Notes: generated by a model not told the origin, from the sequence alone. DNA of 63,740 nt, filler included, from Stramenopiles sp. TOSAG23-6 (GCA_900128565.1; 12 parts of 12 records of this genome joined end to end with filler, not necessarily neighbours in it); one strand, 5' to 3'; numbered from the whole stretch's first letter, positions 346-63,740 are shown. Numbers and translations are program-made.

Positions 346-440
346 GTATGTTTTTTTTTTTCAAATTCGATTTTTTTTTCGTACGAAATTTTGTACCTAA
401 CGATTTTTTTTGTTGTGTGAAATATTTTTCTAAAATACAT
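346..440 (+). mobile_element. Introner-like insert (GT...AT); flanking exon phases do not match, possibly a chimeric join
   Basis: Full consensus GTATGT / TTCGTACGAAATTTTGTACCTAAC / TAAAATAC-AT. Confidence 0.8.
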
Positions 441-735
441 GGATCCGATTCTCTCAAAAGATAATTGGGTGTCATTGACTAATCGAGATCGACTTAATCG
501 CGTTGATTATGTTGTAGATATTGACGAAGTTGGAATATTGTTTGATGCACTTGTACAAAACAGCTCTCTAGATACAATAGAAACAAACTCAGATGCACGC
601 CAAGCTTGGTGTCTTTATGTAAATGCTGTACGAAAAATGTTAAATAGAGCTCTTAAGGCACAGCCTAAAGGCACTGGGAACGACAATAATGAATTTGTGA
701 TGGAGAATTTCTCTGTGAATAAAAGGAAATCATGA
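441..735 (+). CDS. Terminal exon of an unknown protein
   Basis: Open frame DPILSKDNW...NKRKS* directly after the insert. Confidence 0.5.
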
Positions 736-891
736 ATTTGTGATGGAGAATTTCTCTGTGGATAAAAAAAATGGTAAAAACAATCTATAATTGCAATCAT
801 AAAAGAATATCGAAAATTCAAAAATTGGGGAGCACAACAAATAGAATGATTTCAAATACACATCAGAAAAGTTGAGAAAAAAAAATGTTTA

Positions 892-2154
892 TTAATAATA
901 TAAATTTGCGAAACTCTGGTGCTCATTGAAATGATTTCGACGTAATTTAGGAAATTCTCCCGCTTCCACAGCACTCATAGTTGAAGTGGGGATGACTCTT
1001 TGACTATTATCACTAGACTTAGCTGTACTATTAGCGCTTGCTGTTGCTTTTAATACACGGATTGTTCTTTCCAACTCTATATTTTCAGATTTTGTTTGTT
1101 CTAATTCTTGGTTTAATTCATTGATCATTCTATTCTGACTTTTTAATCGTTTTAATAGTTTCACGTAGTATCGAGTTTCTAACCGTAAGCCATCTTTTTG
1201 TTTTATACTGGACTGCTCTCGGGAAGCTGCAAGTCTAAGCTCCGTGAGTCTCTTTTTTAAACTTTCATTTTCTTTGAGTAAATTGTCAATTCTAATTCTA
1301 TTTTCTGCTTCTTTTTTGAACATATCTTTCCATTGGCTTTCTTTAGCACCAAGCTGAGTACATCGACGGTATATTCCATCTGCTTTGGAATTGAGAAAAT
1401 TATTCATTTTTTCAAGTTGGTCGCACTTAGTCTCAGTTGTATTAAGTTTGGATTGTAGCAGTTTCACTTCATCTTCTAGATCTGGTTCCGATTCAAGAGA
1501 ATTTACATCAAGACTATTGTCACTAATGTATGTTTTCACTCCGATTACTTTTCCTTGTGATAATTTTTGTTTGTATTGAGCGTTATCAACTTGAAAACTT
1601 CTTTTGTACTTCGCATCTCCAAGCATAAAACTCATTTGTCGTTCTCGTTCCTTTCTAGAGTTTTTAACAGATATCTCTGAGTAAGGTAGAACCAAATCGC
1701 GACCAGTGTTTGTTAACTCTACTTTAGTGGGATTAGTACAATTATTTTTCAGTTTCAAAGCCTTTCTGTCTCTAATTTCGCGTAACTCAACTCTATCTGG
1801 ATTCACTTTATCCTTGAGATTTGCAATAAAGGTCTGATACTCTTCGAAATTACATTGACACAAGTCTTGTCTAAGTAAATCTCCAATTTTTGCTTCATGT
1901 TCTTTAATAAATGCAAATTTATTATCAACTGGAGTCTCACTTTCTTCTTCACGAATTTTAATATCATTTGTTTTCTTTCCTCCAACTGCAGTGTGCCTAT
2001 TCTTTAATTTCATCGTTTTCTTTTGTCTAGAACGGCAAAGCTCCGCCTTCCTTCTCATCTTCGAAAATTCATGATGTATAATTGCTCGTTGCTCCTTCTG
2101 CATACGCTTAAGCGAAAGACCTGAAGTAAATTTACTATCCTGTGAGTCATTCAT
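892..2154 (-). CDS. Coiled-coil protein of unknown function
   Basis: Long ORF; first ATG at 2154; K/E/L-rich heptad character. Confidence 0.7.
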   Translation of the reverse strand: MNDSQDSKFTSGLSLKRMQKEQRAIIHHEFSKMRRKAELCRSRQKKTMKLKNRHTAVGGKKTNDIKIREEESETPVDNKFAFIKEHEAKIGDLLRQDLCQCNFEEYQTFIANLKDKVNPDRVELREIRDRKALKLKNNCTNPTKVELTNTGRDLVLPYSEISVKNSRKERERQMSFMLGDAKYKRSFQVDNAQYKQKLSQGKVIGVKTYISDNSLDVNSLESEPDLEDEVKLLQSKLNTTETKCDQLEKMNNFLNSKADGIYRRCTQLGAKESQWKDMFKKEAENRIRIDNLLKENESLKKRLTELRLAASREQSSIKQKDGLRLETRYYVKLLKRLKSQNRMINELNQELEQTKSENIELERTIRVLKATASANSTAKSSDNSQRVIPTSTMSAVEAGEFPKLRRNHFNEHQSFANLYY

Positions 2155-2360
2155 AATTGACGGGTCAATTTTGTAAATCTTATATAAAAATCGTAAGGCA
2201 AAAAAGTCAACATCAAAAGAAGACGTTACGGTTACATTTATGATGTCAACAGGTTTTTTATTCTTTTTCAAAATAAATAAATTGTTATTGGATTCCGTAC
2301 GAAAGTTTTGTAACTAAACCTAACGGTAGTAGGGAATATCGATTGATATACAGCAAGACA

Positions 2361-4392
2361 GCTATGCCTTTTCTTCACTTGCTTGAGATTTCTGAAGCAA
2401 TAATTTAGTTTCTTTAACTATTTGTTCATCAGTTTTACGTTGTGACAGTCTGAGCATACGAGACATCTGTCGACTTTTCCCTGAAATTGTTTGGGCAACT
2501 TTATCCATTTATTGTGAATTTTTTTTTTTTTTTGGTTTAAAAAAATCGTTAGGTACAAAAACTTTTGGTACGAAAAAAAATAAATTTAAGTAAAATTTTG
2601 GAATGAATGATGAAAACGTACATAGTCTTACGCCGATGAAAACCACTTTGATCAAACAATCTAATCTTTGAGTATGCAAGGATTACATCGATAGATTTTC
2701 GAAATACATATCTTATATACCAAAAAACATGCGAGAACGTTTCCATAGTATATCCATCACCAGTAAATAGAAGGAAGGTACCTAAATTAAATATAGTTGC
2801 AATAAGTAGAAAAAATGCATTGATGCCAAGCCAATACGTCATATGCTGAAGCTTTAGCATTTGTGCAGAATGTTTATCATTCTTTTTGTTTTTATTTCGA
2901 GATCGTCTCATTAATTTCATTTTCCTCTGTTTTTCACCCATAACTTGAAGAAGTCGCATAAATTGAACAACAAAATATACACCTGATAAAAAACCTCCAA
3001 ATGTATCTTCAAAGAGTCTAAAGACTACGAAATAATATATTGGTATTAATCCAAGTATCATAATGAAAGTTATGACAAAAGGAGGAGGGACTGTCAATAT
3101 AAATGATATTATTAGAGTAGTTCTGTACTTTTTAAAAATTTGAGCTTGTTTTCTCATTCTCTTAGTAGCATTGACTAGTTCCATTACAGAAATTCCGACC
3201 AAGATATTATTGAAAAATGCTACACCGGAAGGACTAAAGAAATTATAACCAAAACCATAAGCGCTACCCCAAATTCCTAGGTGTCTGTGCGAAAGTCCCA
3301 CCCCAAGCATCGGCGATTTGATGACATGAAGTACACAGGTGAAAATTGCAAGCCAAATTGAGACCCGTGGAGCATTTATCGCATTCGATTTTAAGTTCAT
3401 TTCGTCCAATGTATTAAAACCTACTTTCATTACACACATGCCCATCAAAGGCAAAAGAATGTGGGCTTGGCACCATAAAAATGGATTTTTGGCGACAATT
3501 CCTGTTTTCTGATCTTCTTCAAAGATACTTATTCTTATCTTACTCTCACCAACAAAAAGTTTGTCTCTCTTTTTGGCTAATTCTTCATAGAAGTATTTTG
3601 GAATTGGCGCATTGTGGGTAGGTGCACCTGGAAATAAGTAAAAGTCCGTAATCCAAACCAAAAAGATATCAGGTTGATCAACTTCAAGATACTCATATGG
3701 AGTATGAAAACCCTGGCCCTGGCCTATGCCCTCAATTGTAAAATCATTTGCCAAGATTAAGCCGCCGATAGCCCCTTCGGAATGTAAGTGTTGAATCATT
3801 TCTTGGTGTGAGTAAAAAAATCCTCCACCATGTATTGTGAAAAACAAATTTTAGAATTCGAAATTCGTTAGGTACGAATTTTGGTACAAACAATTATTTA
3901 GTTAAAAAAATCATGATGAAAACACACAAATTCAGGTTTATGATCAAGAGAAGCCCCAAAATTTGCAACTGCAATTTTACCGGTTACATTTACTTTAGTG
4001 GGTTGGGTATCACCAGCAAGTAGTCTTGTCGTAGTCGCAAGCCCATCAACCCATACCCACTCCCCTTCGAGTGTTCCATTTTGTTTACCAAGAAAAGGTG
4101 AAACGGAAAGGCAATCATGGCCTCTCTGATTTAACTCTGGAATGGCATTATTTGTTGTTTTGTTTAACAATTCAATATTCCCAAGGTATTCGTCACCAGT
4201 GCCCGGAAGACCGTCAGGATTATGATGGGACATTATATTCCCGCATATGAAGAATATGGCAATGAAAAACAAAGTCAAAGACATGGTGTCAACCCATTGC
4301 AGATACAATTTCTTTAGTTCTTTAACCTTTTTTTGCTTCACTTGTATTTCCGAATCATTCTTACCACTGTTATTTTGTTGTTCTTGATTCAT
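2361..4392 (-). CDS. Multi-pass membrane protein, 3 exons (4392-3928, 3829-2622, 2506-2361), possible PA-like luminal domain
   Basis: Two inserts removed by the family rule give PEF|GGGFF and RKTM-DKVAQ in frame; about 7 hydrophobic segments. Confidence 0.7.
2507..2621 (-). mobile_element. Introner-like intron GT...AT (ends CACAATAA-AT)
   Basis: Consensus motifs; AT/AT flanks; frame restored. Confidence 0.8.
3830..3927 (-). mobile_element. Introner-like intron GT...AT
   Basis: GTGTGT donor, GTACCTAAC, CACAATAC-AT; frame restored. Confidence 0.8.
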
Positions 4393-4954: not shown

Positions 4955-5156
4955 TCAAAAAAAACTTTTTTGTTGCTGTTGCTGAAAGTCATTTCTATGT
5001 TTCAAATCTATTTTTCTATTTTTTTCACACCAATTATCAGTTTGATTCATAACTCCATGAGTCAAATTCCATATGATCAACGGATGATCAATTTCGCAGA
5101 CTTCAGATCGACGGTATGAATCAAATAGCCATGGCAAATTTAGTGAATCCAGATGC
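4955..5156 (-). CDS. Exon fragment of an unknown gene, following a truncated insert at 5157-5249
   Basis: Open frame immediately after CACAATAC-AT. Confidence 0.4.
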
Positions 5157-5249
5157 ATGTATTGTGAAAAAAAAAAAACACAATCGAAAAAAAATTGTTA
5201 GGTACAAAATTTCGTATGAAAAAAAAATAAATTTGAAATTCATAATGAA

Positions 5250-5380: not shown

Positions 5381-6097
5381 GCATGCTCGATCGGAACGAA
5401 TGAAACAAATCAATAAGGCAATAAAAGAGCAAAGAAAAGCCATGATTAGGGAGGAGAATATGTACGTCTTTATTGTGAATTTTTTATCTAAATGTTTTTT
5501 AAAAACATTTTGTACCTAACGAGTTTCGAATTTAATTTTTTTTCACAATACATCCGTCGTGATAAATGGAAAAATAATTTAACATTAGAAAGGGACATCA
5601 CACCTGGTCCAGGAAAATATTCTTTGCCCGATCTTACTACACAAGTAGCAGGTGGGACTTGGTCTCGAACCGCAGTAAAGAGTGAATTTGAAGAAATTGA
5701 ATATCGAGGTAGAAATATTCCTGGTCCTGGCCATTATGGAATGTTAAAGTCATGTATTGAACCAAAAGGGGGAATTATTGCTAGAAGATGTCCAGGTCAA
5801 TTGGATATCATGTTAAAACGAGCAGCTGAGACACCAGGTCCTGGTCAGTATCAGCCAAGAGAGATTGAAAGTAATAANCCTCAAGCTTTTGCTAAATTTA
5901 AAACTCCAGGAATGTTAGATCAAGCCATTAGAAACTCAAGAGATGTCCCCGGNCCAGGAATGTACCAAACTTCGGATATGCCAACAGCAAAAGCAAAGGA
6001 AGTNTTACGAATGAAAGCAGCAACTAGACAAATAGTACAATCTGCTTTAAAGAAAAATGGTAGGGGACGTCGGCGTCCTAGTACTGCCGCTTATTAG
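5381..6097 (+). CDS. SHIPPO-repeat (PGPGxY; ODF3-like) ciliary protein, 3' part; intron 5462-5553
   Basis: TPGPGKY, IPGPGHY, TPGPGQY repeats; EENI-RRDKW after insert removal. Confidence 0.8.
5462..5553 (+). mobile_element. Introner-like intron GT...AT
   Basis: AT/AT flanks; frame restored only when CAATAC+2 nt is removed. Confidence 0.85.
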
Positions 6098-6233: not shown

Positions 6234-9167
6234 TCAAACTTGGACTTTAGGGTTAGTATCATCATTATTTACTTCTTTGGAAGGTGTTACCGCCGCTACC
6301 TTCTTTGCATCATTCAACATTTTTGCAATTCTCTCTTCTGATGTTAAGCGCGAGATTTCTATCGTTTCAGGTTTCATTTTCCTTCGATATTGTAATCTTT
6401 TTTCAATCCGTTTTGGAATGCTATTTTCATCGATACAATGCTTCATATTGATTATATTACCTCTGCGTTGTGCTGCTGAAAACAATCTTGACATATGCGC
6501 TTGCATCATTGTTATTCGTTGTTTATTTGCCTTATGAGAAGATCGAGCGCGAGTTCCAGGTCGCGAACCTTTTTTAGTGAATGAAGCTTGGTCAAGAGGA
6601 GACCACCCACGGAGAGTGATTTCTACATCCAATTTCGGCCACCTTTGTTCGAATTGAGGGAGAGGATCAAGCATATCTTTTGTTGGAAGAATTGCTAACG
6701 TCTGCTTCTTNGTGACAGCTATGCGCGTTTCAGACACGCGGCGTATTGGTTCTGTAACTATGTTGTGCCACTCTTTATCAGCAGCATCTTGACCGCGTTG
6801 TTTAAATATACGATCATATCTTTGTTCTGCCGTTGAAACTTTCATTGCTGAAACTGCCATTAGTGCTGCTATTTTATTACCATGACCAGCTGTATAAGAT
6901 GCTCGTACTGCATCTCTTTGTTTCGGTTGCATTTTNGTAGAATTCTTACTATATCTTTTCATAATTGGATCTATTTTAGCCATATAAGCATCAATTTCTT
7001 TATCACCTATAATATTTGTTTTTGGTCTCCAAATAATACCGTCTAGTTCATTTGCGAGTTTTTGTAGTGCTTCTTTCTTTTCTGCTTTTAATTTTAATTG
7101 TTCTTCGTTTTTTTCTGCATCTGNTATTCCCAAAGATTTTGACGCCTTTTGGTCCCATGCTTCTTGTGCTGCATTAGCCAATTCGCTTAGTTTTAGTGTA
7201 GCTATACCCATTTTTAGTCCTTTTTTTCCTTGCGGTTGCATTAATCGGAATTCGAAAGTAATATTTTCAAGTCGAGATTTCAACTTATTACTATAGACAA
7301 CAAAGGATTCATTCCAAAGAATGTTGTTATTGATATCTNTCAAATTAGTCATTGGAGATATCCTTGTTTTATGCTCGATTTTTTTGTGGCCTAATAATAC
7401 TGTATGAATATACGGCGAACTAAATGGATTTGTTGTCTCTGTTTCTGGGTTTTGATCATGACCATACAAATTTGACGCTGATCTGATTTTTATCCATAAT
7501 TCAAATCCTTTTTCACTCGGTGTTGTCCCATCGAATAGTCGCTCACGGCTTAACCCTTCCCGGTGTTTCATTCGGTCATAGTATGACATTCCTCTTCGCT
7601 CAGCTTCAATTTTATATTTTGGTTTATCCTCAACTGACATCCTAAGACAGTTCTGTCGCGCACGCTTTCGGTTTAACTTTAATATATGTAAGTGTCCCCT
7701 CCTGTATTCATCTACTTTTCTAAGACGTAACTTTTTAGCTCTTACTAATGCAAATGCTTGGTCTTCTTGGAAACGCAAGTCANACACTGTTTTTTCCATT
7801 TTCTCATGTTTTTCTTTTTCCATGTTTAACTCTGCTTCCAACTTTTTATACCGTTTAAAAATTTTATCTTTCAAATGAACTTTTTTATCCAAGTGTACAT
7901 TTTCAGACTTAAGTTCTTCNAGTATATGTTCGAGTATTCCAATGTCATCATGGTAGTCTATCTTCTTTTGTCTTAGTTCCATCTCTTCCTGATTTAATTT
8001 CTTAATTTCTTCTGCAGTTGCTAGATATCCTTCTTGTTGCGTATTAAATCGTAATTTACTTTTCAACATTCTTTTTTCAGCTATTGTTGTGTTTTTCTCT
8101 TCTTTAATTCTTGTTTGAACAGATAAATCAAGTTTCTCCTTGAGTCTCTTCAACTCAGTATCCAAGGCNAAAGAGTCAGCAAGCATTTTTTGTTTNGTTT
8201 TTTCATCCTCGAGACCTACTTTCTCGGCTCGCCGTACAGTAGATGAAAATGGCACTTTTTTTCCATTTTCATTTGTGTAAATATATGAATCCAATGTTTG
8301 CTGCAATACTTTCCTAAATAGTTCTTGACTATTTTTTTCATTCGGTGATAAGTATTGTGAAAAAATATTTTTTTTAGTAAAAAAATCGTTAGGTACAACA
8401 TTTCGTATGAAAACAAAATTTGAAATGGTTAAAAAAAANTCAATTTTGAAAACGTACAAACAGTTTTCTATATAATAACTTAAAAAGTCGAAACATGCTA
8501 GAGTTCGTGCTATAGCTTCGTTCTCGCTCGACAAATCATTTTCATATGTTTTGCAGTATTCAATGGTGTCTCCGAGTGAAGTTGTCTCTGATAATAAAGA
8601 CGATTTCAAAGAACATTTGACTATGCCTTCTTTTTTTCTTCGTTCTGAACGTAAAGTTTTAGTACCAATATANGGAAAGTCNTTATAATTATTTTCTAAA
8701 ACATCTGAAGAAATATTTAGATTTTGTGAATGAGGTTCCTTTAAAGGTATCTTTAAAGGTATCTTTAAAGGTATCTTTAAATCTTGAAACCTTGATTTCA
8801 AAAATGTGTGAAATGTTTTTAATAAATCTTCATCTGGTGGAAGATACTGCCATACAGGTACTTCATCTTCTCTTGGACGCTGATTATTTACNGCATTTGA
8901 TGTATTCGAAGGAAGTGAACGATTCAAAAATGATTTCCCCCATTCCAAACGTTTTTCTAGTGTATTTAAAACAGGTTCTCGAAGTTTTGGCTTCACTGGA
9001 AGTGAATGTCCAAGAGCTTGGCGAACTACAAAAGCAGCTGGAGCTGAATTAGTAGAAGTATTGTCTGTTTTTTTGCGAGATGCACTTCTACGAGCAGCAG
9101 ATTTTGTAGCGTCTGAATCGATCAGATTTCCTGATGATTCTGTGCGTATACTTGGTAGGCGAAGCAT
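6234..9167 (-). CDS. Coiled-coil protein with a C2-like domain; intron 8350-8457
   Basis: Long ORF; LWIKIRSASNL...SSPYI...KTRI...LWNESF resembles C2. Confidence 0.7.
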   Translation of the reverse strand: MLRLPSIRTESSGNLIDSDATKSAARRSASRKKTDNTSTNSAPAAFVVRQALGHSLPVKPKLREPVLNTLEKRLEWGKSFLNRSLPSNTSNXVNNQRPREDEVPVWQYLPPDEDLLKTFHTFLKSRFQDLKIPLKIPLKIPLKEPHSQNLNISSDVLENNYXDFXYIGTKTLRSERRKKEGIVKCSLKSSLLSETTSLGDTIEYCKTYENDLSSENEAIARTLACFDFLSYYIENCLYVFKIXFFLTISNFVFIRNVVPNDFFTKKNIFSQYLSPNEKNSQELFRKVLQQTLDSYIYTNENGKKVPFSSTVRRAEKVGLEDEKXKQKMLADSXALDTELKRLKEKLDLSVQTRIKEEKNTTIAEKRMLKSKLRFNTQQEGYLATAEEIKKLNQEEMELRQKKIDYHDDIGILEHIXEELKSENVHLDKKVHLKDKIFKRYKKLEAELNMEKEKHEKMEKTVXDLRFQEDQAFALVRAKKLRLRKVDEYRRGHLHILKLNRKRARQNCLRMSVEDKPKYKIEAERRGMSYYDRMKHREGLSRERLFDGTTPSEKGFELWIKIRSASNLYGHDQNPETETTNPFSSPYIHTVLLGHKKIEHKTRISPMTNLXDINNNILWNESFVVYSNKLKSRLENITFEFRLMQPQGKKGLKMGIATLKLSELANAAQEAWDQKASKSLGIXDAEKNEEQLKLKAEKKEALQKLANELDGIIWRPKTNIIGDKEIDAYMAKIDPIMKRYSKNSXKMQPKQRDAVRASYTAGHGNKIAALMAVSAMKVSTAEQRYDRIFKQRGQDAADKEWHNIVTEPIRRVSETRIAVXKKQTLAILPTKDMLDPLPQFEQRWPKLDVEITLRGWSPLDQASFTKKGSRPGTRARSSHKANKQRITMMQAHMSRLFSAAQRRGNIINMKHCIDENSIPKRIEKRLQYRRKMKPETIEISRLTSEERIAKMLNDAKKVAAVTPSKEVNNDDTNPKVQV
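8350..8457 (-). mobile_element. Introner-like intron GT...TT, 108 nt, stop-free in frame
   Basis: TT|GTACGT...CACAATAC-TT; junction ENCL-SPNE. Confidence 0.8.
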
Positions 9168-10589: not shown

Positions 10590-11382
10590 NNNNNNNNNNN
10601 NNNNNNNNNNNNNNNNNNNNNNNNNNNNNNNNNTTAATTAATTAANNNNNNNNNNNNNNNNNNNNNNNNNNNNNNNNNNNNNNNNNNNNTTTTTTTTCAA
10701 TTTCGAATTTATTTTTCGTACGAAATTTTGTACCTAACAAATTTAATTTTTTTTTTTTGAAATATTTTTCTACAATACACACAAATGAAATGGATATTAT
10801 TTGGTACAAAATTTGCTAATAAAATACATGTTGAAAAAAGGAAGCAATATGAAAAAGATTCTGAATTATAGTAATAGACTAATAGTCAATAATCGACTAT
10901 ATTATATCATATGTCTCATTCGTTTATATATTTATTTATTGTGCCACGAATAAACGAAGTTTTATAATACAGGGAAATTCCTTAAAAAAAATATATTTTT
11001 TTTAAATTTCGAATCCTTTTTGAAAGTTTTTTTGTGTTCTTCAATCAAAAAAAGAAAAGACGACAACAAAAATAGCAAAAAAAAAATTGAAATCAATCAG
11101 TATTTTTTTAAACTACGACGACTACTGTTACCCTATGTACTACTAGTACTAGCTAGCTATAGGTAGTAAATATGTACGACTCGGGTGTAAAAAATACTTA
11201 TGTCAACATCGGTCAAACATTCGAAAGATTCGCATTGGAAAAAGTTTGAAAACATTTCTATTTTCTTCAATACAATAATTGTAGTATTACCTAAAAAAAT
11301 AGACACTTTCACAAGAATATATTACGTTTTTAAAAATGGATGTTTAGTTTCATTAAATTTAAAATTTTTATATTTTAACGTC

Positions 11383-14541: not shown

Positions 14542-15858
14542 ATGATAAGAAAGCACATCAATATTATTTTCATCTTCATCACAATGCTACCAAAGATATT
14601 CGTGGAGGGTTTACCCGTTCATAAAAACAGTAGTAAGAAAAACATAGTTCAAAATGGCAACTTTTCAGCGGAACAATCTCGATACAAGTCAAAACGAGTA
14701 GAGAAAACATTGGAAAGCAAGTCACCAAAGCGTGGACTTTTCTATGAACTTTTAGACGGAGTTCAACAGTCTTTAGTACAAGATGGAATATCAGATACTC
14801 TAAATTCGTTGCTTCCCGCGGTTAAGCATAATGATGATAATGATGATAAACAACAAAAACAACAAAAAGACGGTGCAGTAAGATCTAATGAGGCAACAAA
14901 AAAACCTTTTAAGGAGACACACAGAGAGAAACAAGAGGTACATGACCCACTACTTGAAAGGAATCAAATTGTAGCTATTGAAGTTAAAGACTGTACGTTT
15001 TTGAAATTTTCATTTTTTTACTCAAAAAAATATTTTTCATAGTAAATTTTGTACCTAACGAATATTTTTTTACGGAAAAAAAAATACTTTTTCACATTTC
15101 TTTAAAAGTTAAATCTAAGTTGTTGAAAGAACATTTGAAGAAAATAGATGACTTAAGTATTCAGGATGAGGTTGATGAAGTAGATAAAAGTATTGATAAA
15201 TTATCTGCTACAATTATGGCCCAACAAGCTTCACAGATACATGAAATCCCAAAGCGATTAATTTTTACGTGTATGTTTTTTCATCCATTTTTTTTTTTTT
15301 TTTTGAAATTTCAAATTTATTTATTTTTAATTGAGGCTAGGGTTATACTAACGTTTTTGATTTTTTAAATATTTTTTCACAATGCATACAAATGGAACCT
15401 TTTTGAAAAAAACAAACCCAAAATTCTTGCTGATAATGCACGGAGAACAATTAAGCTTTATAAAGAGGAATGGAATTTACCCGACGCCCCAGTTGTGATA
15501 CTGACAGATGACGATTGCATTGATTTATTACGAGAAATTGAATCTCAACTTATTCCATTTTTTAAAAAAGAAACACAAGGAAAATACAAAGCCGATGTGT
15601 GCCGAGTCGCAGAGCTACTTAAAAATGGCGGTTATTATTTTGATGTTGACATAAAAGTTGTGAAGCCAGTCACTCTCCAGGTACGTTTTTTCTTGAATTT
15701 TTACATAATTTTTTTTTCGTAGAAAATTTCGTACCTAACAGCACACACATTAAAAAAATATTTTTTTTACTTTCTAGGATGGAATTCAATTTTCCACGGT
15801 TCTAGATGTCAATCGAACAGGAATTTTTCAGGCTTTCCTTGCATCTGTACCAAATCAT
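14542..15858 (+). CDS. Glycosyltransferase family 32 (DxD) protein, 3' truncated; introns 14993-15102, 15271-15387, 15681-15777, 15859-contig end
   Basis: Spliced product IPKRLIFTYKWNL...KADVCRVAELLKNGGYYFDVDI...FQAFLASVPNH. Confidence 0.85.
14993..15102 (+). mobile_element. Introner-like intron GT...TT
   Basis: GAC T|GTACGT...TTCACATTTC-TT|TA AAA restores the frame. Confidence 0.7.
15271..15387 (+). mobile_element. Introner-like intron GT...AT
   Basis: ACG T|GTATGT...CACAATGC-AT|AC AAA gives LIFTYK. Confidence 0.8.
15681..15777 (+). mobile_element. Introner-like intron with canonical GT...AG
   Basis: CAG|GTACGT...TTTCTAG|GAT; AG/AG flanks. Confidence 0.85.
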
Positions 15859-16026
15859 GTATGTTTTATTTTTTTTTTTTACAAAAAAATCGATTTTTTT
15901 TTCGTACGAAATTTTGTACCTAACGANNNNNNNNNNNNNNNNNNNNNNNNNNNNNNNNNNNNNNNNNNNNTTAATTAATTAANNNNNNNNNNNNNNNNNN
16001 NNNNNNNNNNNNNNNNNNNNNNNNNN

Positions 16027-21205: not shown

Positions 21206-21358
21206 GTATGTTTTATTTTTTTTCAAATTCGATTTTTTTTTTCGTACGAAATTTTGTANNNNNNNNNNNNNNNNNNNNNNNNNNNNNNNNNNNNNNNNNN
21301 NNTTAATTAATTAANNNNNNNNNNNNNNNNNNNNNNNNNNNNNNNNNNNNNNNNNNNN

Positions 21359-39715: not shown

Positions 39716-39824
39716 ATGTATTTTAAAAAAATATTTCAAAAAATAAATTTGAAAATTTGTTAGGTACAAAATTTCGTACGAAAAAAAAAATCGATTTTTT
39801 TGTAAAAAAAAAAATAAAACGTAC

Positions 39825-41985: not shown

Positions 41986-42084
41986 GTATGTTTTATTTTT
42001 TTTTTTACAAAAAAATCGAGTTTTTTTTTTCGTACGAAATTTTGTACCTAACATTTTTTTAATAAATATTTTTTCACAGTACAT

Positions 42085-42485: not shown

Positions 42486-42637
42486 GTATGTTTTATTTTT
42501 TTTTCAATTTCCAATTTATTTTTCGTACGAAATTTTGNNNNNNNNNNNNNNNNNNNNNNNNNNNNNNNNNNNNNNNNNNNNTTAATTAATTAANNNNNNN
42601 NNNNNNNNNNNNNNNNNNNNNNNNNNNNNNNNNNNNN

Positions 42638-53151: not shown

Positions 53152-53353
53152 NNNNNNNNNNNNNNNNNNNNNNNNNNNNNNNNNNNNNNNNNNNNTTAAT
53201 TAATTAANNNNNNNNNNNNNNNNNNNNNNNNNNNNNNNNNNNNNNNNNNNNTTTTGGAAAAATATTTCAAAAAAAAATCTAAAAAAATTTGTTAGGTACA
53301 AAATTTACTATAAAAAAAAATTCGAAATTGAAAAAAAAATAAATAAAACATAC

Positions 53354-53499
53354 TTTACCATTAGAACAAAGTACGCGGCTAATTTCGCGAAGTAATTGTG
53401 GATATAAGATATTAGGTTTTAGTAAAGTTTTGCACCGATTGTTAAAAGGCATATCAACAATAATTAAATCTACAGAATTTGAACGAAGGGGTAAGAGGG
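53354..53499 (-). CDS. Internal exon of a THUMPD3/Trm14-like RNA methyltransferase
   Basis: LPLRSNSVDLIIVDMPF...LYPQLLREISRVL, bounded by two inserts. Confidence 0.75.
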
Positions 53500-53600: not shown

Positions 53601-54549
53601 ATTATCATCGAATTTGTCAAAAGGGTATTTGTTACTATTCGCAACACATTTAGTGTGAAAAATATTATTTTTTTTTTGGTTTGTTACAAAAAATAGTTAG
53701 GTACGAAATTTTCTATGAAATTTTTTTTTGAAATGATGAAAACGTACACATACTAGGCTTATTATTGAATTCCTCCTCACTAACGCTAGTATCATCTAAA
53801 ACATCATCATTATTATTACAATTATCATCATCAGCATACCATTGGCTGTATTTACTATCTTTCTTTAGAAGTAGACGCAACTGATCAAACTCATTTTGCT
53901 GTAGTTTAGGACGCGCAAAATTTGGATTTTCCTTACATAAATCAACTTTTAGTGTAACACTTGAGGTATCATCACGAAATTCAAAGGCAACCTCCAGTTT
54001 TTTTGTTGTCATTTGCCTTTTTGCTTTTCCATTAGCCTTATATGGCCCCATGAGAATATGTTGGTCCACATTATACAAAAACAAGGGGGTTCCAAGTTTA
54101 ATTGCACTCCCACCCATTGCCCAAAAGTAGTTATCCCCTATAAAAACGTCATCTTTAAAGAATTTTTTTTCTGATTCATTATTACAAATAAACAAAAACC
54201 CCAAACAACTATTACTGTACTTTGGTTTAAATTCATATGATGGGACAGTATGCTGCGCTATACTTCTTTTTGTTGTTTCTTTTGTCTCATGTACAGAAGC
54301 TTCTTGTACATCTCGGGTTTGCTGTAATTCGGACGTCGTTTTCTTCTTTTTCGTCGTCTTGAGGGGAATTTTTATCAGCTTTTTCTTTGATATAACCACA
54401 GTATTATCCGGTTCTTCATTTCCTGACGTATCCTCATTATAGTCAACCTCTTCACTATCTTCAGAAATATTTCCTACGTTGCTGTCTGCAACAGAAAACT
54501 TTTCAAAGTCTTTTGCTACACCGCTTGTATCTGGTAAAAGTATATCCAT
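53601..54549 (-). CDS. DCD-domain protein, 5' exons; intron 53648-53747 (GT...AT)
   Basis: GFLFICNNES...IKLGTPLFLYN...LMGPYKA. Confidence 0.7.
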
Positions 54550-54976: not shown

Positions 54977-57096
54977 TCACGCGCCTTGATCATCACCATC
55001 ACCACCATCACCATCACCACCTGCATCACCACCTGCCTTAGCACCTGCTTCACCACCTGCTTCACCACCTGCCTTAGCACTATTTGCATTATCAACATCA
55101 CCACCTGCCTTAGCACCATCACCAGTTGGACCAGCACCAGCAGGATCAGCACCATCATCACCACCTGTATCACCACCTGTATCACCACCATCACCACCAT
55201 CACCACCATCACCATCTGCATTGTCGTCGTCATTTGAATTCTCTTTGCCCTCCTCCGGACGACATCCTTCCAGTTTCCCCTTTCCACAAATTGCCACATG
55301 ACTATGTTTGTCCTCCAAAGCCTTTTCTAATTCTTTTTGTGCTTCTTTTTTCAGCTTGTTTTTTCCCCACCAAGTTTTTTTGGCTTTTTGTTTTTTACAC
55401 TCTGCAATCGCTATATTTTTTTCAATTGTCATCATATGTTTTTCATACCCCTCTGTTTTTCCTTTGTCACCGGGAAAGCTCGGAATATGCACACATTCAT
55501 CACAATTACCCTTCAAGCATTCTTGTAATTTTTCATAGACCTTAAGTGAGTAATATATGCCATTGGGGTGTTTTTTTTTCGCTTCCGTCATTTTGCCATT
55601 CTCCGGACGACATCCTTCCAGTTTCCCCTTTCCACAAATTGCCACATGACTATCTCTGTCCTTCAACGCCATGTCTAATTCTTCTTTTGCTTTTTTTATC
55701 AGCTTTCTTTTTTTCAAGGGATTTAGATTGAAAGTTTTTGTGGCTTTTTGTTTTTTACACTCTGCATTCGCTATATTTTTTTCAATTGTCTTCATATGTT
55801 TTTCATACCCATTTGTTTTGGTTTCGTCACCGGAAACGCCCGGAATATACACACATTCATCACAATTACCCTTCAAGCATTCTTGTAATTTTTCATACTG
55901 AGATGGTAAGTACCCTAGGTCTTTTTCGTAGTATTTTTTTTTCGCTTTCTTCTCGGCACTTTCCTGATTTCTTTTTGCTTGAAGTTCTTCCTCGGCCTTT
56001 TCCTCTTCTCTCTCCAATTTACTTTCCCATAAATTTTGGTAAAATATTTCCAACATTTTTTTATTTTTGTAAGGTACAAAGGTACAAAAACAAACAAAAA
56101 ACAAACAAAAACAAACAAAAAACAACATAAACAAACAAAAACAAACAAAAAAAAATGATTTTGGATTTTGGAGTTGAAAAACATGAAATTTCGAAATTAA
56201 AATGTGAGAAATTTAAAAGAAATTATTTTGTACAAAAAAATTAAATTACGAAATTAAAGTGATGAAAAAGTACAAGATTCACATGGCTTCGGTGCCATCC
56301 CTTGGAAATGTTGGAGTATTGGTATAAGAGCCAAAATATTTCTATGAATTTTCTCATTGTTTCTTTTTTGCTTTCTTTTTTGCTTTCCCACTTCTTCTTT
56401 CGCTTTTTTCAAGTCGGATATTTTTTTTTTTTTCAAGTCGGATATTTTGTTTTTTTCTTTATCCTTTTGTGAGTTGTCTTCGTCTTCCATATGACTGATT
56501 TCTTCCTCGATATCATCGATATTTTCCTCGAATTCGTCGATTTTTCCCTCGAAATTGTCGTTTTTCGCTTTGAGTTGAGAGTGTTTCTGTAATGGTTCCT
56601 CTAACGCTTTTAAACTTCTTTTAACAGCTGCTTCAAATGTCTTTTCACAATTCATTTGATTTTGTTTAAGTTTGTCCACTTGACGGCTGTATGATTCAAA
56701 TGCACTATTAACTCTATCATTCTTGGAGCAATATTTTTTATGTACTTCGCAAAATTCCTGCACAGCACAAAATTTAGCACACTGATCAGAATCGAAATTC
56801 CTTTTGAAGAACGCATTGAAAGATCCTTTCATACCTTTACCAATGCATTCACCGTACTTCTCTATATCGACGTTCATATTATCCTTTAACGGCAAATGTT
56901 TACAAAATTGAGACGCAAGCATTTTATTATTCTCATTCGCGCTCCTTTTCATCCCTTTAAGAATTTTTTTTCCAATGATATAAAGACCTACAGCTGCGAT
57001 TACGTGAGGAAGAGCAGCACCTTGCCCTATAGCTTCAATACGAGCAAATAATGATCCAATGATTATAGCTTTGAAAAGTTTGTTAATGTTAAGCAT
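54977..57096 (-). CDS. Secreted Lys/Cys-rich protein with a ~120-aa internal duplication and Gly/Asp-rich tail; intron 56029-56273
   Basis: Signal peptide at 57096; YEKLQECLKGNCDECV...CGKGKLEGCRPE twice; junction CESW-ESKL. Confidence 0.7.
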
Positions 57097-57452: not shown

Positions 57453-58385
57453 TTACACAAGAAACCCGAAGCTTTTTCGCAATGAAAGCCTAAGAAAAGA
57501 ATTCAAATTATAGTCTACTGGGTGATCAAATTTTGATAAAGTTGACACTTCCTGATCAAATATTGATGACAATTTTTGATCATTTTTTCTGACTCCACAA
57601 ATACTCAATTTACAATTTGGAGCAAGACTTTTCAAAGCCTTTTCATACTCTTTATCANAGTTTATGTTAGGCACAGCGCGGAAGGAATAATCAGAGGTAA
57701 CACAGACCCTAAATAGTAAAAAAATATTTAAAATTTTGTTTTGTTAGGTACGAAAATTTCGTATAAAAGAAAATTTAAAAAAAAAAAAAAATTCGAAATT
57801 CATCATGAAAACATATATACCCGAATGTAGACATCCAGTCTTTGTTTTTGCGAATATTTTTTGATTGAGCATTGCACTAGCAATAAATAATTGATACAAA
57901 GTTGTAGGTGGAGGTCTTATAGGCGGAATTAATGCTTGTATTCGTGATTCATTTTTATCAATATCAGATTTTTTTTCTATAGAGAATTGATTAGCTATAC
58001 AATTACCACACATATGTATCGTGAAAAACATTATAAATTTGAAATTGGTCAAACGTTTTGTTAAGAAATAGCGGATCAATAATGAAATGTATACGAAATT
58101 TCAGTAGTCAAAACGTACATCATAGTCACACAAAGAACAACGGTGAACTGGTGTACGTATTGTGAAAAAATATTTTTTTTCTGTAAAATTCGTTAGGTAC
58201 AAAATTTCGTACGAAAAAAAACTAAATTCAAAATTGAAAAAAAAAATAAAACATCTTGTGAAAAAATATTTTTTTTCTGTAAAATTCGTTAGGTACAAAA
58301 TTTTTATAAAAAAAAAAACTAAATTCAAAATTGAAAAAAAAAATAAAACATACACCTGGACGACACAATTTTTTACATTTATCAC
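57453..58385 (-). CDS. ZZ-type zinc finger protein, 3' exons; introns 58155-58353, 58014-58118, about 57709-57816
   Basis: Spliced CDKCKKLCRPG|TPVHRCSLCDYD|MCGNC. Confidence 0.75.
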
Positions 58386-58549
58386 AAGTATTGTAAAAAA
58401 ATATTTTTTTTTTTTTTTCGTAAAAAAAAACAATTCGTTAGGTATGAAANNNNNNNNNNNNNNNNNNNNNNNNNNNNNNNNNNNNNNNNNNNNTTAATTA
58501 ATTAANNNNNNNNNNNNNNNNNNNNNNNNNNNNNNNNNNNNNNNNNNNN

Positions 58550-59314
58550 AAGGTTGTACAAAATCTGCAAGAGGGAGGACAAAATTTTGTGTTGGACATG
58601 GAGGAATACGTTGAATTTAATTTTTTTTTTCATAGGAAATTTTGTACCTAACGATTTTTTTTACAAAAAAAAAATAGTATTGTACAAAAAAAAATTTATT
58701 TGTTTTTTTTCATAGGAAATTTTGTACCTAACGATTTAAAAAAAAAAAATATATTATTGTACAAAATATGGCAAACGATGTTCCATTCAAGGTTGTAGTA
58801 AATCAGCTAGAGGAGCTACACCTTTTTGCTGCTCGCATGGAGGTGGTCGCCGTTGCCAAATAGTTGGATGTAAAAAATCAGCACAAGGCTGTACAAACTA
58901 CTGTGTTGCTCATGTAAATTATATATTTTTTTTGATTTCCATTTGCCTACCATTGATTGTATACTCAGTTTCACACAGGTTTTCGTGTTTTTCTTCTCAA
59001 ATGTTTCATACAAAAATGTATGCCTAACAAATATAGACATATCTATTAACATTTTGTTTTTACTCTACATGGTGGTGGACGGCGATGCAATTATCCACGT
59101 TGTGCCAAAAGTTGTCATGTACGTTTTTGTAATTATATTCATTTGCTCTTTTTTTATTTTATAATTGAATTTCATTTTTTTATTGTATCAAACTCTTGAA
59201 AAATATTATTGTAGAATTTAGGATAGCACAACATTCTGTCGATTGCATGGACGACAATTGTATTTCAAGTATATGGAACTTAATAATAAGAAAGTACATA
59301 CGATTTCTGGCTAA
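58550..59314 (+). CDS. WRKY19-like zinc finger repeat protein, 3' part; introns 58606-58769, 58914-59070, 59119-59221
   Basis: GCxKSARGxTxFCxxHGGGxRC repeats restored across three inserts. Confidence 0.85.
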
Positions 59315-60699: not shown

Positions 60700-60754
60700 G
60701 AAGTTGTATCAACTTTAAAGTAGTATATCTATAGAGATATCAAAAACAAAATAA

Positions 60755-60769
60755 GGTATTTTCAATACC
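60755..60769 (+). promoter_or_regulatory. Histone 3'-UTR stem-loop (H2A)
   Basis: GGTATT-TTC-AATACC followed by ATCCA. Confidence 0.75.
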
Positions 60770-60880
60770 ATCCATTACAAGGAAATCAATGTATACAGTA
60801 TAATCTTTTATAATATAAATAGTAAATCGTATATTCTATTCTCTCTGATTATTTATGTTTCTTGAATGGACGAATATATA

Positions 60881-63612
60881 CTACACGTGGTACCTTGAAT
60901 TATTAATAATGTCGTACCCAGCAGACTCTGCTGGGCTTTGTGCTCTTTTTCTATGTGAAACTTGTTTCGTATTATGTCTATGTCTATACGATTGTGCACT
61001 TGATGTACGTTTTGGGTTGTGTTGCCGTTGATCTTTTGTCATTTGTAAATGTTCATACACGATAGAGTTCAAAATATCCTTTTGCGTATTCTTTTTTCCT
61101 TTTCCAAAGTAACGCAACGGTAATTGTTTATTAGTAAGACTCATATCAACATCCTTTTGATGAAGCATTCTCTTACTTGTGCCAGTAGAGTGAGAGTGGT
61201 GTCCGCTGGGTGCTGTGCCATGTCGACGTTCTCTGTTTTTTTTCCAACTTCGTTTTTGTACTCTTTGACTTCTTGATTCTCTCTCTTGACGTGTTTTACC
61301 CATTCTTTTTACATACTTTTTAATATTGATTGATGAATTAACAGTATCGTGTGGTGGCATTGGTGGTTTATGCTTGTTTATATGTCTTTTTGAAGTTGTT
61401 TTGTGCCGAACCAACTCTCCAAAAGACCAGATATTATTCAAATTGGTACTGTTTGTATCCTTACTGTTCTCTTCCAAGTTCCCCGTTGATCTACCTTGTA
61501 CATTTCGAAGTAATCCAATACCTAAATGTCTCTTACGGCGTTCTTCTATTTGTAACATCTGTCTCTGTTGTTCTTCTCTACGCCTCTGCAGTTGTTTCAT
61601 TCGTAGCTCTGCAATTCGATTTGCTTTTGCTTGTGCTAAATCATTGGCTCTTTTTGTCCTTTCGTAATCCACTATTCTTTGACGTTCTTGTTTTTTTATT
61701 CTTGCTTCAGCAGCTAATTTCTCACGTTGTTCCAATGTCATTTTGATTTTTGTCTTGGCTTGTAGTCGTATTTCTTTGCCTTCGGTTGTCTCTTTCAATT
61801 CAGATTGACAACTTGCTGCATCTCTGTCTGCTTTACGTCTTTGGGTTTCTATTCTACTGCTCTCCTCTCGTTCTCTTCTTTTTTCTTTCTCTACAGCTTG
61901 TCTTGCTAAAAATTTTGGATCTTCTGCTTGAATACCTCTTGGTTTTAGCTTTACAATTGCAGCAAATGCACGCATTGAATCCGGTAAGAGACGTTCAAAA
62001 CCAAACAAAACATGATTTTCATATTGTTTCCGTTTACATTCTAAAACTTCACGTCTGGTTCTTATTATATTAGGATCATCCTGGATATACTCTCGTGTTG
62101 TATCCTTGGACTGTGTGAATGAAGTTGAACGGCGACTGTTGCAATGGAGTGCTAATTTTTTAGCTTTTTCTTTACCAAGTAAATCATCTGCGGTTGGCGC
62201 AGCTAATACCAATGCTTCAAGTACCATTGGAGCCTTTACCAACCAGTCTAATCGAGTTGATGTATTTAACATAGGTGAGAGATTTACTTCAAGTAACCAA
62301 GGCTTTAATAATTCATCTAACAAAATATCAAACCCTAGCAATTCAAAAGTACAAAAACCTTCATCAGGGGAATAATATTGCTTGTGACTTGTTTTTAAGT
62401 CGTGTCTTACGCTTAGCATGGTCTTACTCACCAAATCTTTAATATTATTCCATAATTTTTCAGTATTTTCACCTTTTGTTTCTAAATATTCAAATAATGC
62501 AGTTAAAGTCCATTTGCTTCCGGTTTGTTGACATCGAATTAATGAATCACGTTTTTGTTCAATTATATGTTCTCTTGTAGGATTCTTATTTGTACTATAA
62601 TCACTCGATTTACCAGCCAAATATTCACCATCATACATATATGATAACATTTCATATTCTTCGACATTTTTTTTAGCATCAAAATCATCACTACTATCAT
62701 ATGATTCTTTTTCCATTTCTTCATGTTCAAATCCTGATGAAGTCGTTTCGGAACATTGAGTGGTCAAGGTATTCTTTTTTTTCTGGTTTTGATAATTCTG
62801 AATATTAATCCTTTTTTCCATTTCTCTGATTCGGCGCTGTGGACTATGTCGACCGGCAGAAGCAGCGGCAGCGGCAACAGTTGCACTAGTTTCATTATAT
62901 TGCGGATTTTTTTTATTAATGCTATAATTAGTTAAATGCATAAATGTTTTCTTAATATTACTCTCATCAGGTTTCGTGTATTTTTCAGTACAGAAACGTG
63001 CTAAACCTTCTCTATGTAAGAATACACGCAATGTAGGTGTTGTACTAGTAATCAAAACATATAAACGTAAATCAAATTTCATACCATTAATCAGATAAGG
63101 ATTATCAATGTACTGTTGACACACAAACCTGCTCTGCTCTGATTTTCCTTGTTTTTTACGTTTACGATTTCGTGTAGCATACAAATCTGCATTTGGAATG
63201 TCTTGCATCAACTGAATCCCACTGCCACAGGAGCTAATATTTGGTTTACATATAAAGGTTTTTTTTAAACCATTTTCTTCATTCATTCCAAAAGTTTCCC
63301 ACCAAGTATATATGGTACAAAATATTTCAATTATTTTTGTATTTTTTGTTAGGTATGAAATTTTTTCAAATTTTTTTTTTTTCAAATTTTTTTTTTCAAA
63401 TTTTTTTTTTTCAAATTTTTTTTTCTTAGGTAGAAAATGTACTATGAAAAAAATAAAATTAGGATAAAGAAACGTACTTGAATAGCAGGTATTTCATTTG
63501 GACAATTCCAGCTTAAGGGACTAAAGTCATAGTGCTTTGGCAAATTTCGTTGTAAAATTTTCATATTTCGTGCGAGCATGCATTTGGATGTCAAGGACGA
63601 CATTCCTGGTAT
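60881..63612 (-). CDS. Tubulin polyglutamylase (TTLL6/13-like), 5' truncated; intron 63308-63477 (GT...AT) and a truncated insert from 63613
   Basis: IPGM...LARNM; FICKP...GSGI; KFDLRLYVL; EGLARFCT; HLTNYSINK; FELLGFDILLD; PWLLEVN. Confidence 0.92.
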
Positions 63613-63740
63613 ATGTACTGTGAAACAAAAAAGAATTAATTTTGTTTTGTTAGGTACAGAATTTTGTACTATAAAAAAAAAAAAAAAAAAAAAATCGTTT
63701 TTTTTTTCTTGGTAGGAAATTTGGAACGAAATTTTTTTTT

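What the first reader, a model, noticed from the sequence alone, without database searches (positions are those of the whole stretch)
346..63740. Abundant family of non-canonical GT-NN introns whose acceptor is set by position after (TTC)ACAATAC, not by AG
Seen: ~38 distinct related inserts, typically 92-115 nt, in coding sequence and sense to the gene on either strand. Each has a U2-like donor GTAYGT, a branch-point-like GTACCTAAC and a 3' motif AAATATTTTT(CAC/CCA)AATAC. In about 20 complete copies the frame and protein motifs are restored when the cut falls 2 nt past that motif. Acceptors are AT (2507, 3830, 5553, 15387, 18846, 42334, 48419, 53648, 56029, 58014, 59070, 63308), TT (8350, 15102), GT (58155), TG (39983) and AG (15777, 31539, 39463, 59221). 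Known: the major spliceosome normally needs the 3' AG (U2AF35, Prp8), and mass non-canonical introns are known from only a few lineages such as euglenids, Amoebophrya and Fritillaria. Inference: this organism splices with an AG-independent acceptor rule. I do not recognise this architecture as described, but cannot search the literature.
Basis: partly seen in the sequence, partly recalled or inferred. Interest (0 to 1): 0.93.

Follow-up and report, generated by a model that had tools for sequence, protein, structure and literature searches.

The report
Transposon-like intron family with non-AG ends
A marine protist's genes are peppered with copies of one ~100-base mobile-element-like intron whose 3' end is mostly AT instead of the near-universal AG, which would require an unusual splicing rule if RNA data confirm it.

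Summary
The window is 12 short contigs of an AT-rich marine eukaryote, probably a stramenopile. It carries 40 hits (38 without a duplicated contig) of one ~92-132-nt element. The element has GTAYGTTTT at its start, a conserved TTTTTTCGTACGAAATTTTGTACCTAAC core and a T-run plus CA(C/A)AATAC at its end. It lies sense to the gene wherever the gene strand is known.

Removing the element plus 2 nt keeps long open frames in 19 of 24 complete copies. In the ABCF gene this cut restores the LLL-DEPTN motif found in 116 of 116 homologs; AG or ...AC cuts do not.

New here: the two variable terminal letters copy the last two letters of the upstream exon (12 of 24 identical, 6.7 expected). That looks like a 2-bp target-site duplication. 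The family is therefore best read as an introner. It brings its own donor and branch site and takes its acceptor from the duplication, so AG ends arise only at AG targets.

No RNA contig bridged a junction, so splicing at these exact sites is inferred, not shown. Transposon-made non-canonical introns are already known, so this is a new variant of a known kind.

The parts
346..440 (+). complete copy, GT..AT by the rule; frame exception (needs a length of class 93/96)
2507..2621 (-). complete copy, GT..AT, flank AT/AT
3830..3927 (-). complete copy, GTGTGT donor, ..AT; no in-frame AG within 60 nt
5140..5249 (-). copy cut at its 5' side by the contig end; 3' end ..AATAC AT
5462..5553 (+). complete copy, GT..AT (same sequence again at 42750-42841 in the duplicated contig)
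8350..8457 (-). complete copy, GT..TT, flank TT/TT (again at 45638-45745)
10690..10784 (+). copy cut at its 5' side by the contig end
14993..15102 (+). complete copy, GT..TT
15271..15387 (+). diverged copy (TATACTAAC branch site, ..CACAATGC AT), frames 94/111 codons
15681..15777 (+). complete copy, canonical GT..AG, flank AG/AG
15851..15927 (+). copy cut at its 3' side by the contig end
18846..18945 (-). complete copy in the Arm-repeat gene, GT..AT; no in-frame AG within 60 nt
21200..21258 (+). copy in the protein kinase gene, cut by the contig end
26684..26740 (-). copy cut by the contig end, next to the TrmO_N exon
31539..31642 (-). complete copy, GT..AG, flank AG/AG
31840..31905 (-). copy cut at its 5' side by the contig end
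37335..37392 (-). copy after the RPL7 exon (donor GTTTGT), cut by the contig end
39463..39567 (-). complete copy, GT..AG
39716..39824 (-). complete copy, GT..AT; joins an ABCF exon to a CobW_C-like exon, probably an assembly chimera
39983..40080 (-). complete copy in the ABCF (EttA-like) gene, GT..TG; junction checked by homology
41986..42084 (+). complete copy; its motif reads CACAGTAC and the frame fits the CAG at 42079 (canonical GT..AG), not +2
42237..42334 (+). complete copy, GT..AT; no in-frame AG within 60 nt gives the long frame
42477..42537 (+). copy cut by the contig end
47949..48011 (+). copy cut at its 5' side by the contig end (MIOS-like gene)
48288..48419 (+). complete copy with an internal insertion, GT..AT, in the MIOS-like gene
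53251..53359 (-). copy cut at its 3' side by the contig end
53500..53600 (-). complete copy, GT..AT; after chained splicing the frame stops 9 codons later (possible true C-terminus)
53648..53747 (-). complete copy, GT..AT, in the DCD-domain gene
56024..56105 (-). degenerate copy; donor not fixed
57709..57820 (-). complete copy, GT..AG, 15 open codons downstream
58014..58118 (-). diverged copy (..TTCACGATAC AT), flank AT/AT, frames 110/89 codons
58155..58353 (-). two copies in tandem, removed together by the rule (GT..GT, flank GT/GT)
58383..58448 (-). copy cut by the contig end
58586..58792 (+). two variant copies in tandem just upstream of an ATG (3' block ..TATTGTAC)
58979..59070 (+). degenerate copy, GT..AT, frames 79/31 codons
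59119..59221 (+). related intron, GTACGTTTT..AG, frames 81/41 codons
63308..63477 (-). long degenerate copy in the TTL gene, GT..AT, frames 87/120 codons
63597..63693 (-). copy in the TTL gene; its 5' part is degenerate or lies beyond the window end

Best explanation
The inserts are one family of introners: short, non-autonomous, transposon-like elements that survive inside genes because they are spliced out as introns.

Each copy brings three things. The first is its own 5' splice site (GTAYGTTTT). The second is its own branch site (CTAAC inside the invariant GTACCTAAC, about 33-44 nt from the 3' end). The third is a T-run followed by CA(C/A)AATAC.

Insertion duplicates about 2 bp of target, mostly AT. 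The intron that restores the original message is therefore the element plus the downstream copy of that duplication: GT...AATAC+NN. NN is AG only when the target happened to be AG. Otherwise it is AT (15 of 24), TT, TG or GT.

For genes to work, the host spliceosome must place the second cut at a fixed position after the 3' block or branch region, not at the first AG.

Shown:
- the family and its conserved blocks;
- sense orientation;
- frame restoration;
- one homology-checked junction;
- the flank/terminus repeat;
- presence in independent DNA metagenomes.

Inferred:
- DNA transposition;
- RNA splicing at exactly these sites;
- splicing by the major (U2-type) spliceosome.
For: Family:
- 41 GTACCTAAC hits against 7.1 expected.
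- 40 HMM hits.
- Three conserved blocks, while the copies are only 66% identical on average.

Orientation:
- All 20 hits that adjoin the 11 genes whose strand is fixed by Pfam or homology are in sense.
- A crude ORF-length test gave 21 sense, 1 antisense and 16 ambiguous of 38.

Frame:
- The +2 rule keeps at least 20 open codons in 14 of 19 copies and in 5 of 5 further diverged copies.
- The first-AG rule does so in 6 of the 15 copies where it differs from +2.
- For 3830-3927, 18846-18945, 39983-40080 and 42237-42334 no AG within 60 nt gives the long downstream frame: at most 8, 16, 5 and 22 codons against 118, 117, 74 and 68.

Homology:
- ABCF exons align to P0002-P0005 without a gap across the junction.
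- 116 of 116 homologs that carry the DEPTN motif have LLL before it. The cut GT..TG gives LLL, a cut 2 nt earlier gives CLL, and the nearest AG is out of frame.

Duplication:
- The upstream exon's last 2 nt equal the intron's last 2 nt in 12 of 24 copies against 6.7 expected (p=0.002).
- Position -1 matches in 20 of 24 (p=0.007).
- The non-AT pairs covary: TT/TT, GT/GT and AG/AG twice. There is no match at -3 or beyond.

Reality of the DNA:
- An independent seawater DNA metagenome covers all 30 bins. One of its contigs runs from the ABCF exon 22 nt into the element.

Precedent:
- Introners that carry the 5' site and co-opt the 3' site from the duplication (PMC9860276, passages).
Against: - No RNA evidence. 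In one search no RNA contig bridged any element with a joint, and RNA contigs never reached a junction with sequence on both sides.
- Element cores do occur in RNA libraries, including a polyA one. This could be unspliced RNA or DNA carry-over.
- 5 of 24 copies do not fit the +2 rule by frame. One uses an internal CAG, one sits in a probably chimeric contig, two stop early and one is unexplained.
- Only one junction is fixed by homology.
- Terminal inverted repeats are at best 4 nt (GTAT..ATAC).
- The duplication is only 1-2 nt, and half of the pairs differ, mostly at -2.
- No empty site, autonomous element or polymorphism was seen.
- Short single-cell or metagenome contigs broken in the repeat can be chimeric, which weakens frame tests.
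Confidence: 0.6

Rival explanations
1. Same element, other register. The intron is the upstream repeat plus the element (NN..AC, mostly AT..AC), so the constant end is AC and the variable end is the 5' dinucleotide.
For: In the 12 of 24 copies with identical repeats both registers give the same mRNA. AT..AC is a known workable pair of termini (recalled). Fritillaria uses AG-AC and AG-AT (PMC11282704, passages).
Against: In the ABCF copy (flank CT, end TG) this register gives CLL where 116 of 116 homologs have LLL. The conserved GTAYGT would then sit at +3 to +8, not at the cut. Copies at AG targets would become AG..AC instead of plain GT..AG.
Confidence: 0.12
2. The family is removed by a minor (U12-type) or minor-like spliceosome. 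That machinery is known to choose the 3' site by distance and to tolerate non-AG ends.
For: [quoted passage not shown] There U12-type introns also appear to be made by a transposon with a TA duplication (bioRxiv 10.1101/2020.10.12.336362, passages). GTATGTTTT differs from the Physarum-type GTATCTTTT at one position. ACCTAAC resembles the U12 branch consensus CCTTAAC (consensus recalled).
Against: +5 is G, not the near-invariant C, and half the copies have C at +4. The branch motif lies about 33-44 nt from the 3' end, outside the short U12 window (window recalled). GTAYGT plus CTAAC is a textbook U2-type pair. No minor snRNA is in the window, though 63 kb says little.
Confidence: 0.1
3. Ordinary GT-AG splicing at nearby or cryptic AGs, with the apparent +2 fit arising from chance, assembly chimeras or decaying genes.
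For: 5 of 24 copies end in AG at +2 and one uses an internal CAG. For 5 copies an in-frame AG lies 8-47 nt downstream and would only delete a few codons. Conventional GT-AG introns exist in the same contigs: 20369-20512 and 20626-20683.
Against: 4 copies have no frame-keeping AG within 60 nt. The ABCF Walker-B region would be destroyed. 19 of 24 fit +2, where about a third would by chance.
Confidence: 0.06
4. The inserts are removed at the DNA level (as in ciliate eliminated sequences), or they are amplification or assembly artefacts.
For: A short direct repeat at both ends resembles TA-bounded eliminated sequences (recalled). Many contigs end inside the repeat.
Against: The elements are present at very high summed depth in independent DNA metagenomes, and one DNA contig runs from exon into element. 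Strict sense orientation and splice-like signals are not expected for DNA excision. RNAalifold finds no end-pairing structure.
Confidence: 0.03

Closest known systems
Introners of algae and other protists (Micromonas, Aureococcus, Chrysochromulina, Symbiodinium, Polarella)
   Same: Many related short copies act as introns in unrelated genes. Copies lie sense to the gene. The element supplies one or both splice signals, and a short target-site duplication contributes the other. In Chrysochromulina the introner carries the 5' site and co-opts the 3' site from the duplication (PMC9860276, passages).
   Different: Here the duplication is only about 2 bp and is mostly AT, so most copies would end in a non-AG dinucleotide. 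There is no clear terminal inverted repeat. Nothing has been shown at the RNA level.
MITE-derived non-canonical introns of the tunicate Fritillaria borealis
   Same: Mass gain of transposon-derived introns with non-GT-AG ends, tolerated by a modified host U2 spliceosome. Duplicated target letters sit at the boundaries (PMC11282704, passages).
   Different: Fritillaria termini are mainly AG-AC and AG-AT, so the odd end is the 5' one. Here the donor is a perfect GTAYGT and only the 3' dinucleotide varies. The host is a protist, not an animal.
Non-canonical introns and introner elements of Amoebophrya
   Same: A marine protist with repeated intronic elements, direct repeats overlapping the exon/intron boundary and non-canonical ends (PMC7789003, passages).
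   Different: Amoebophrya shows no dinucleotide signature, has 8-20-nt inverted repeats that pair the intron ends and lacks U1. Here the donor and branch motifs are strong and no end pairing is found.
Transposon-made U12-type introns of Physarum polycephalum
   Same: A transposon with a 2-bp (TA) duplication is proposed as the source. GT-AT occurs among accepted non-canonical boundaries (bioRxiv 10.1101/2020.10.12.336362, passages).
   Different: Physarum introns carry the U12 5' motif RTATCYTT and a branch motif 10-12 nt from the 3' end. This family has neither.

Membership tests
Introner (transposon-derived spliceosomal intron family) | Many related copies that interrupt unrelated genes | tested here: met
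   40 HMM hits, 38 distinct, in at least 11 different annotated genes
Introner (transposon-derived spliceosomal intron family) | Copies lie sense to the host gene and carry splice signals | tested here: met
   20 of 20 hits next to strand-defined genes are in sense. GTAYGT and CTAAC are conserved
Introner (transposon-derived spliceosomal intron family) | Removal restores the coding frame and the protein | tested here: met
   19 of 24 copies by frame. The ABCF junction is confirmed by homology
Introner (transposon-derived spliceosomal intron family) | Target-site duplication with a locus-specific match | tested here: met
   12 of 24 identical dinucleotides against 6.7 expected, p=0.002. Position -1 matches in 20 of 24. 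The repeat is only 1-2 nt long
Introner (transposon-derived spliceosomal intron family) | Terminal inverted repeats | tested here: inconclusive
   Only GTAT..ATAC (4 nt). No covariation between donor position +4 and the 3' block
Introner (transposon-derived spliceosomal intron family) | Shown to be spliced from RNA | tested here: inconclusive
   RNA contigs of three runs did not bridge any copy. Only contigs were on hand, not raw reads
Canonical U2-type GT-AG intron | GT donor matching U1/U6, and a yUnAy branch site | tested here: met
   GTAYGT in most copies and CTAAC in nearly all
Canonical U2-type GT-AG intron | AG at the 3' end | tested here: not met
   19 of 24 copies end in AT, TT, TG or GT under the only frame-keeping cut
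U12-type (minor) intron | 5' motif [AG]TATCCTT | tested here: not met
   The family has GTA[CT]GTTTT, with G at +5. The consensus is taken from the Physarum preprint passages and from recall
U12-type (minor) intron | Branch motif TCCTTAAC close to the 3' end | tested here: not met
   ACCTAAC lies about 33-44 nt from the end
U12-type (minor) intron | Minor snRNAs present in the genome | not testable with these tools
   No whole genome is held. Rfam finds only a tRNA in the window
Euglenid nonconventional / Amoebophrya-type introns | Base pairing that brings the two intron ends together | tested here: not met
   RNAalifold on 15 copies gave a consensus energy of 0 kcal/mol. The only pairing is a 5-bp one between donor and branch motif, without compensatory changes

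The most novel reading that the evidence does not exclude
An abundant uncultured marine stramenopile-like protist has a major spliceosome that no longer needs AG at the 3' splice site. It cuts at a fixed place after a T-run/CAMAATAC block instead. This relaxation let a 2-bp-duplicating mobile element with an AT target preference colonise its genes at about one copy per 1.5 kb. Most of its introns would then be GT-AT and invisible to standard gene predictors.
Probability: 0.5. Interest if true: 0.85.

Novelty: new variant of a known kind. Interest (0 to 1): 0.74.

Why it matters
If RNA data confirm it, this would be a further independent case in which a spliceosome tolerates non-AG acceptors on a genomic scale. 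Fritillaria, Amoebophrya, euglenids and Physarum are the known ones. It would also be an unusually clean case. The donor and branch site are textbook and only the last two letters vary, and they vary as a copy of the insertion target. That makes the link between introner invasion and relaxation of splice-site rules directly testable.

There is a practical side too. Gene finders that demand GT-AG would split or truncate most genes of such an organism. Published single-cell genomes of uncultured marine stramenopiles report few introns per gene and high gene counts (PMC5269757, passages). I did not establish that the window belongs to any of those lineages.

Tried and rejected
- RNA check. One run search and one laying of three RNA runs and one DNA run gave only Logan contigs. 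No exon-exon joint appeared at any element, and no RNA contig had sequence on both sides of a junction. The RPL7 exon contigs stop at 37393, but the adjoining 37324-37392 was masked as repeat. No verdict follows.
- Summed depth. It is in the thousands over element cores against about 2-8 over exons. The tool warns that this is no copy number.
- Protein search with the 402-aa exon between two elements: no hit at all.
- RPL7-based scan of JGI metagenome contigs: 59 loci, none carrying the element. The best, L002, is a GC-rich relative's polyA transcript without an intron at that site.
- Element core 22-mer in genome contigs and viral contigs: 0 hits each.
- MIOS junction against solved structures. 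The upstream exon has no match and the aligned part starts 33 residues after the junction, so this was not decisive.
- Conserved RNA structure pairing the intron ends: none.
- A supposed unique GT-AT intron at 20626-20773. I dropped it because a canonical GT-AG solution (20626-20683) also keeps the frame.
- Literature searches for this architecture in stramenopiles or MAST lineages found nothing that describes it.

Full report
**What the window is.**
- The 63,740 bases are 12 contigs of about 5.2 kb, ordered by falling length and joined by N44-TTAATTAATTAA-N44 linkers.
- Contig 5350-10589 recurs at 42638-47848.
- GC content is about 30-39%.
- The genes are eukaryotic:
  - dynein heavy chain, tubulin-tyrosine-ligase-like, Arm, ankyrin/LRR and protein kinase genes;
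  - a MIOS-type zinc ribbon, prefoldin/TPR and a glycosyltransferase;
  - RPL7 and an EttA-type ABCF with an N-terminal extension.
- The best named RPL7 relatives are stramenopiles at 59-68% identity: a diatom transcriptome, Phaeothamnion, Cafeteria, a bicosoecid and Heterosigma. Unnamed environmental proteins reach 89%. I call the organism 'probably a stramenopile' and no more.
- The stretch is held by seawater DNA metagenomes and, in small part, by metatranscriptomes of several studies.

**The observation.**
- GTACCTAAC (up to 1 mismatch) occurs 41 times against 7.1 expected.
- An HMM from 21 seed copies finds 40 hits, 38 after the duplicated contig is discounted. Many are truncated by contig ends, as expected if the assembler breaks in a repeat.
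- Copies are only about 66% identical pairwise, yet they share three blocks:
  - GTAYGTTTT at the start;
  - TTTTTTCGTACGAAATTTTGTACCTAAC in the middle;
  - AAATATTTTTT-CA(C/A)AATAC at the end.
For 56029 no donor could be fixed.

**Are they introns?**
- All 20 hits that adjoin the 11 genes whose strand is fixed by a Pfam or homology match lie in sense. A crude ORF-length test gave 21 sense, 1 antisense and 16 ambiguous of 38.
- I cut from the family's GT to 2 nt past the ...AATAC block. This keeps at least 20 open codons in 14 of 19 complete copies and in 5 of 5 more diverged copies. That is 19 of 24.
- The five misfits are:
  - 346-440, which needs another length class (unexplained);
  - 39716-39824, where an ABCF exon is followed by a CobW_C-like exon (E=7e-4, below Pfam's cut-off), so the contig is probably chimeric across the repeat;
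  - 41986-42084, whose block reads CACAGTAC and whose frame fits that internal CAG, making it a canonical intron;
  - 53500-53600, where the frame stops 9 codons later after chained splicing, possibly a true C-terminus;
  - 57709-57820, with 15 open codons.
- 'First AG after the branch site' works in only 6 of the 15 copies where it differs from +2.
- For four copies no AG within 60 nt gives the long downstream frame.

**One junction is pinned by homology.**
- In the ABCF gene, exon 1 ends ...PEM + CT and the next exon reads ...[10 protein letters not shown]. Homologs P0002-P0005 align to both exons without a gap.
- All 116 homologs that carry the DEPTN motif have LLL before it; 3 of the 119 examined lack the motif.
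- The cut GT..TG at +2 gives LLL. A cut 1 or 2 nt earlier gives RLL or CLL. The nearest AG cuts are out of frame.
- A cut 1 nt later (TA..GT) also gives LLL but has no GT donor.
- So this copy, if the gene works, cannot end in AG or in AC.

- The two variable terminal letters are not free. They equal the last two letters of the upstream exon in 12 of 24 copies against 6.7 expected (p=0.002). Position -1 matches in 20 of 24 (p=0.007) and position -2 in 15 of 24 (p=0.02).
- In the 19 best copies the figures are 11 of 19 for the dinucleotide and 18 of 19 for position -1.
- The rarer pairs covary: TT/TT, GT/GT and AG/AG twice. No match is seen at -3 to -6, nor between the intron start and the downstream exon.
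- This is the signature used to call target-site duplications in introners (PMC9860276, methods passage).
- The simplest reading is an element GT...AATAC that duplicates about 2 bp of target, mostly AT. The message is restored only if the element plus one repeat copy is removed. An AG target gives an ordinary GT-AG intron (5 of 24); an AT target gives GT-AT (15 of 24).
- The 'positional acceptor' is then a by-product of insertion geometry. It still demands a spliceosome that accepts it.
- Where the two repeats are identical, GT..NN and NN..AC give the same mRNA. Only the ABCF copy discriminates between them, and it favours GT..NN.

**Machinery.**
- GTAYGT and CTAAC look like strong U2-type signals (yeast-like; recalled).
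- The branch A lies about 33-44 nt from the 3' end, and this spacing varies. The 3' block, not a ruler from the branch site, marks the cut.
- No conserved RNA structure pairs the ends.
- A U12-type reading deserves mention, because GT-AT is an accepted minor-type boundary in Physarum and U12 introns there also look transposon-made (bioRxiv 10.1101/2020.10.12.336362, passages). However, the family lacks the U12 5' motif and the short distance from branch site to 3' end.
- Conventional unique GT-AG introns exist in the same contigs (20369-20512 and 20626-20683).

**RNA.**
- Only contigs could be laid. No joint across an element appeared, but no RNA contig reached a junction on both sides either.
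- Element cores are present in RNA libraries, which may be unspliced RNA or DNA carry-over.
- An independent DNA metagenome covers all 30 bins, and one of its contigs runs from the ABCF exon into the element. The inserts are therefore real DNA in natural populations.

**Literature.**
- I read passages of PMC7789003, PMC12130899, PMC9860276, PMC11282704, bioRxiv 10.1101/2020.10.12.336362, PMC5269757, PMC5778133 and bioRxiv 10.64898/2026.04.17.719054. The rest I saw only as search listings.
- Searches found no description of a GT-AT introner family or of non-canonical introns in uncultured marine stramenopiles. Subscription papers and supplements were not searchable.

**Verdict.**
- The family is real and is almost certainly a transposon-derived intron family (about 0.85).
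- That most copies are spliced at non-AG sites 2 nt after the block is the best-supported reading (about 0.6), but it is unproven without RNA.
- It is a new variant of a known kind.

Noticed in passing
window 1-63740 (linkers e.g. 5250-5349, 10590-10689): The window is not one locus. It is 12 contigs of 5191-5249 bases in order of falling length, joined by N44-TTAATTAATTAA-N44. Distances and synteny across linkers mean nothing.
   Followed up: yes
window 5350-10589 and 42638-47848: The same contig sequence appears twice, including its scattered single Ns, so two element copies are counted twice in raw tallies.
   Followed up: partly
window 39568-39826 (-): After ABCF exon 2 the contig continues, across an element, into an exon with a weak CobW_C match instead of the rest of ABCF. 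This is probably an assembly chimera made through the repeat.
   Followed up: partly
window 40080-40832 (-): An EttA-type (bacterial-like) ABCF ATPase with an N-terminal extension of about 70 residues sits in a eukaryotic, intron-bearing gene. Its closest relatives are environmental and Gemmatimonadota-like EttA at 55-63% identity. It is possibly organelle-targeted or of bacterial origin.
   Followed up: no
window 20369-20512 and 20626-20683 (+): Two unique conventional GT-AG introns lie at the start of the kinase gene (GTATGT...CACAACAG and GTAAGT...TTTAG). The first ends in a CACAACAG block that resembles the family's CACAATAC block.
   Followed up: partly
window 58155-58353 (-) and 58586-58792 (+): Elements occur in tandem pairs. 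One pair lies inside coding sequence and seems removable only as a unit. The other pair, a variant with a ..TATTGTAC end, lies just upstream of a start codon.
   Followed up: no
window 35541-35630 (-): A tRNA-Leu(TAA) gene of 90 nt, the only Rfam match in the window.
   Followed up: yes
L002 (metagenome locus, 1-1610): A GC-rich relative's polyadenylated RPL7 transcript is 90% identical in protein to the AT-rich window gene. It has no intron at the IHN|G site and seems to retain an upstream AG-ending intron. Close relatives thus differ sharply in base composition.
   Followed up: no
window 6234-9206 (-): A 990-codon open frame runs straight through the element at 8350-8457, so this copy is open in frame. 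Stop-free read-through cannot be used to tell exon from element.
   Followed up: no
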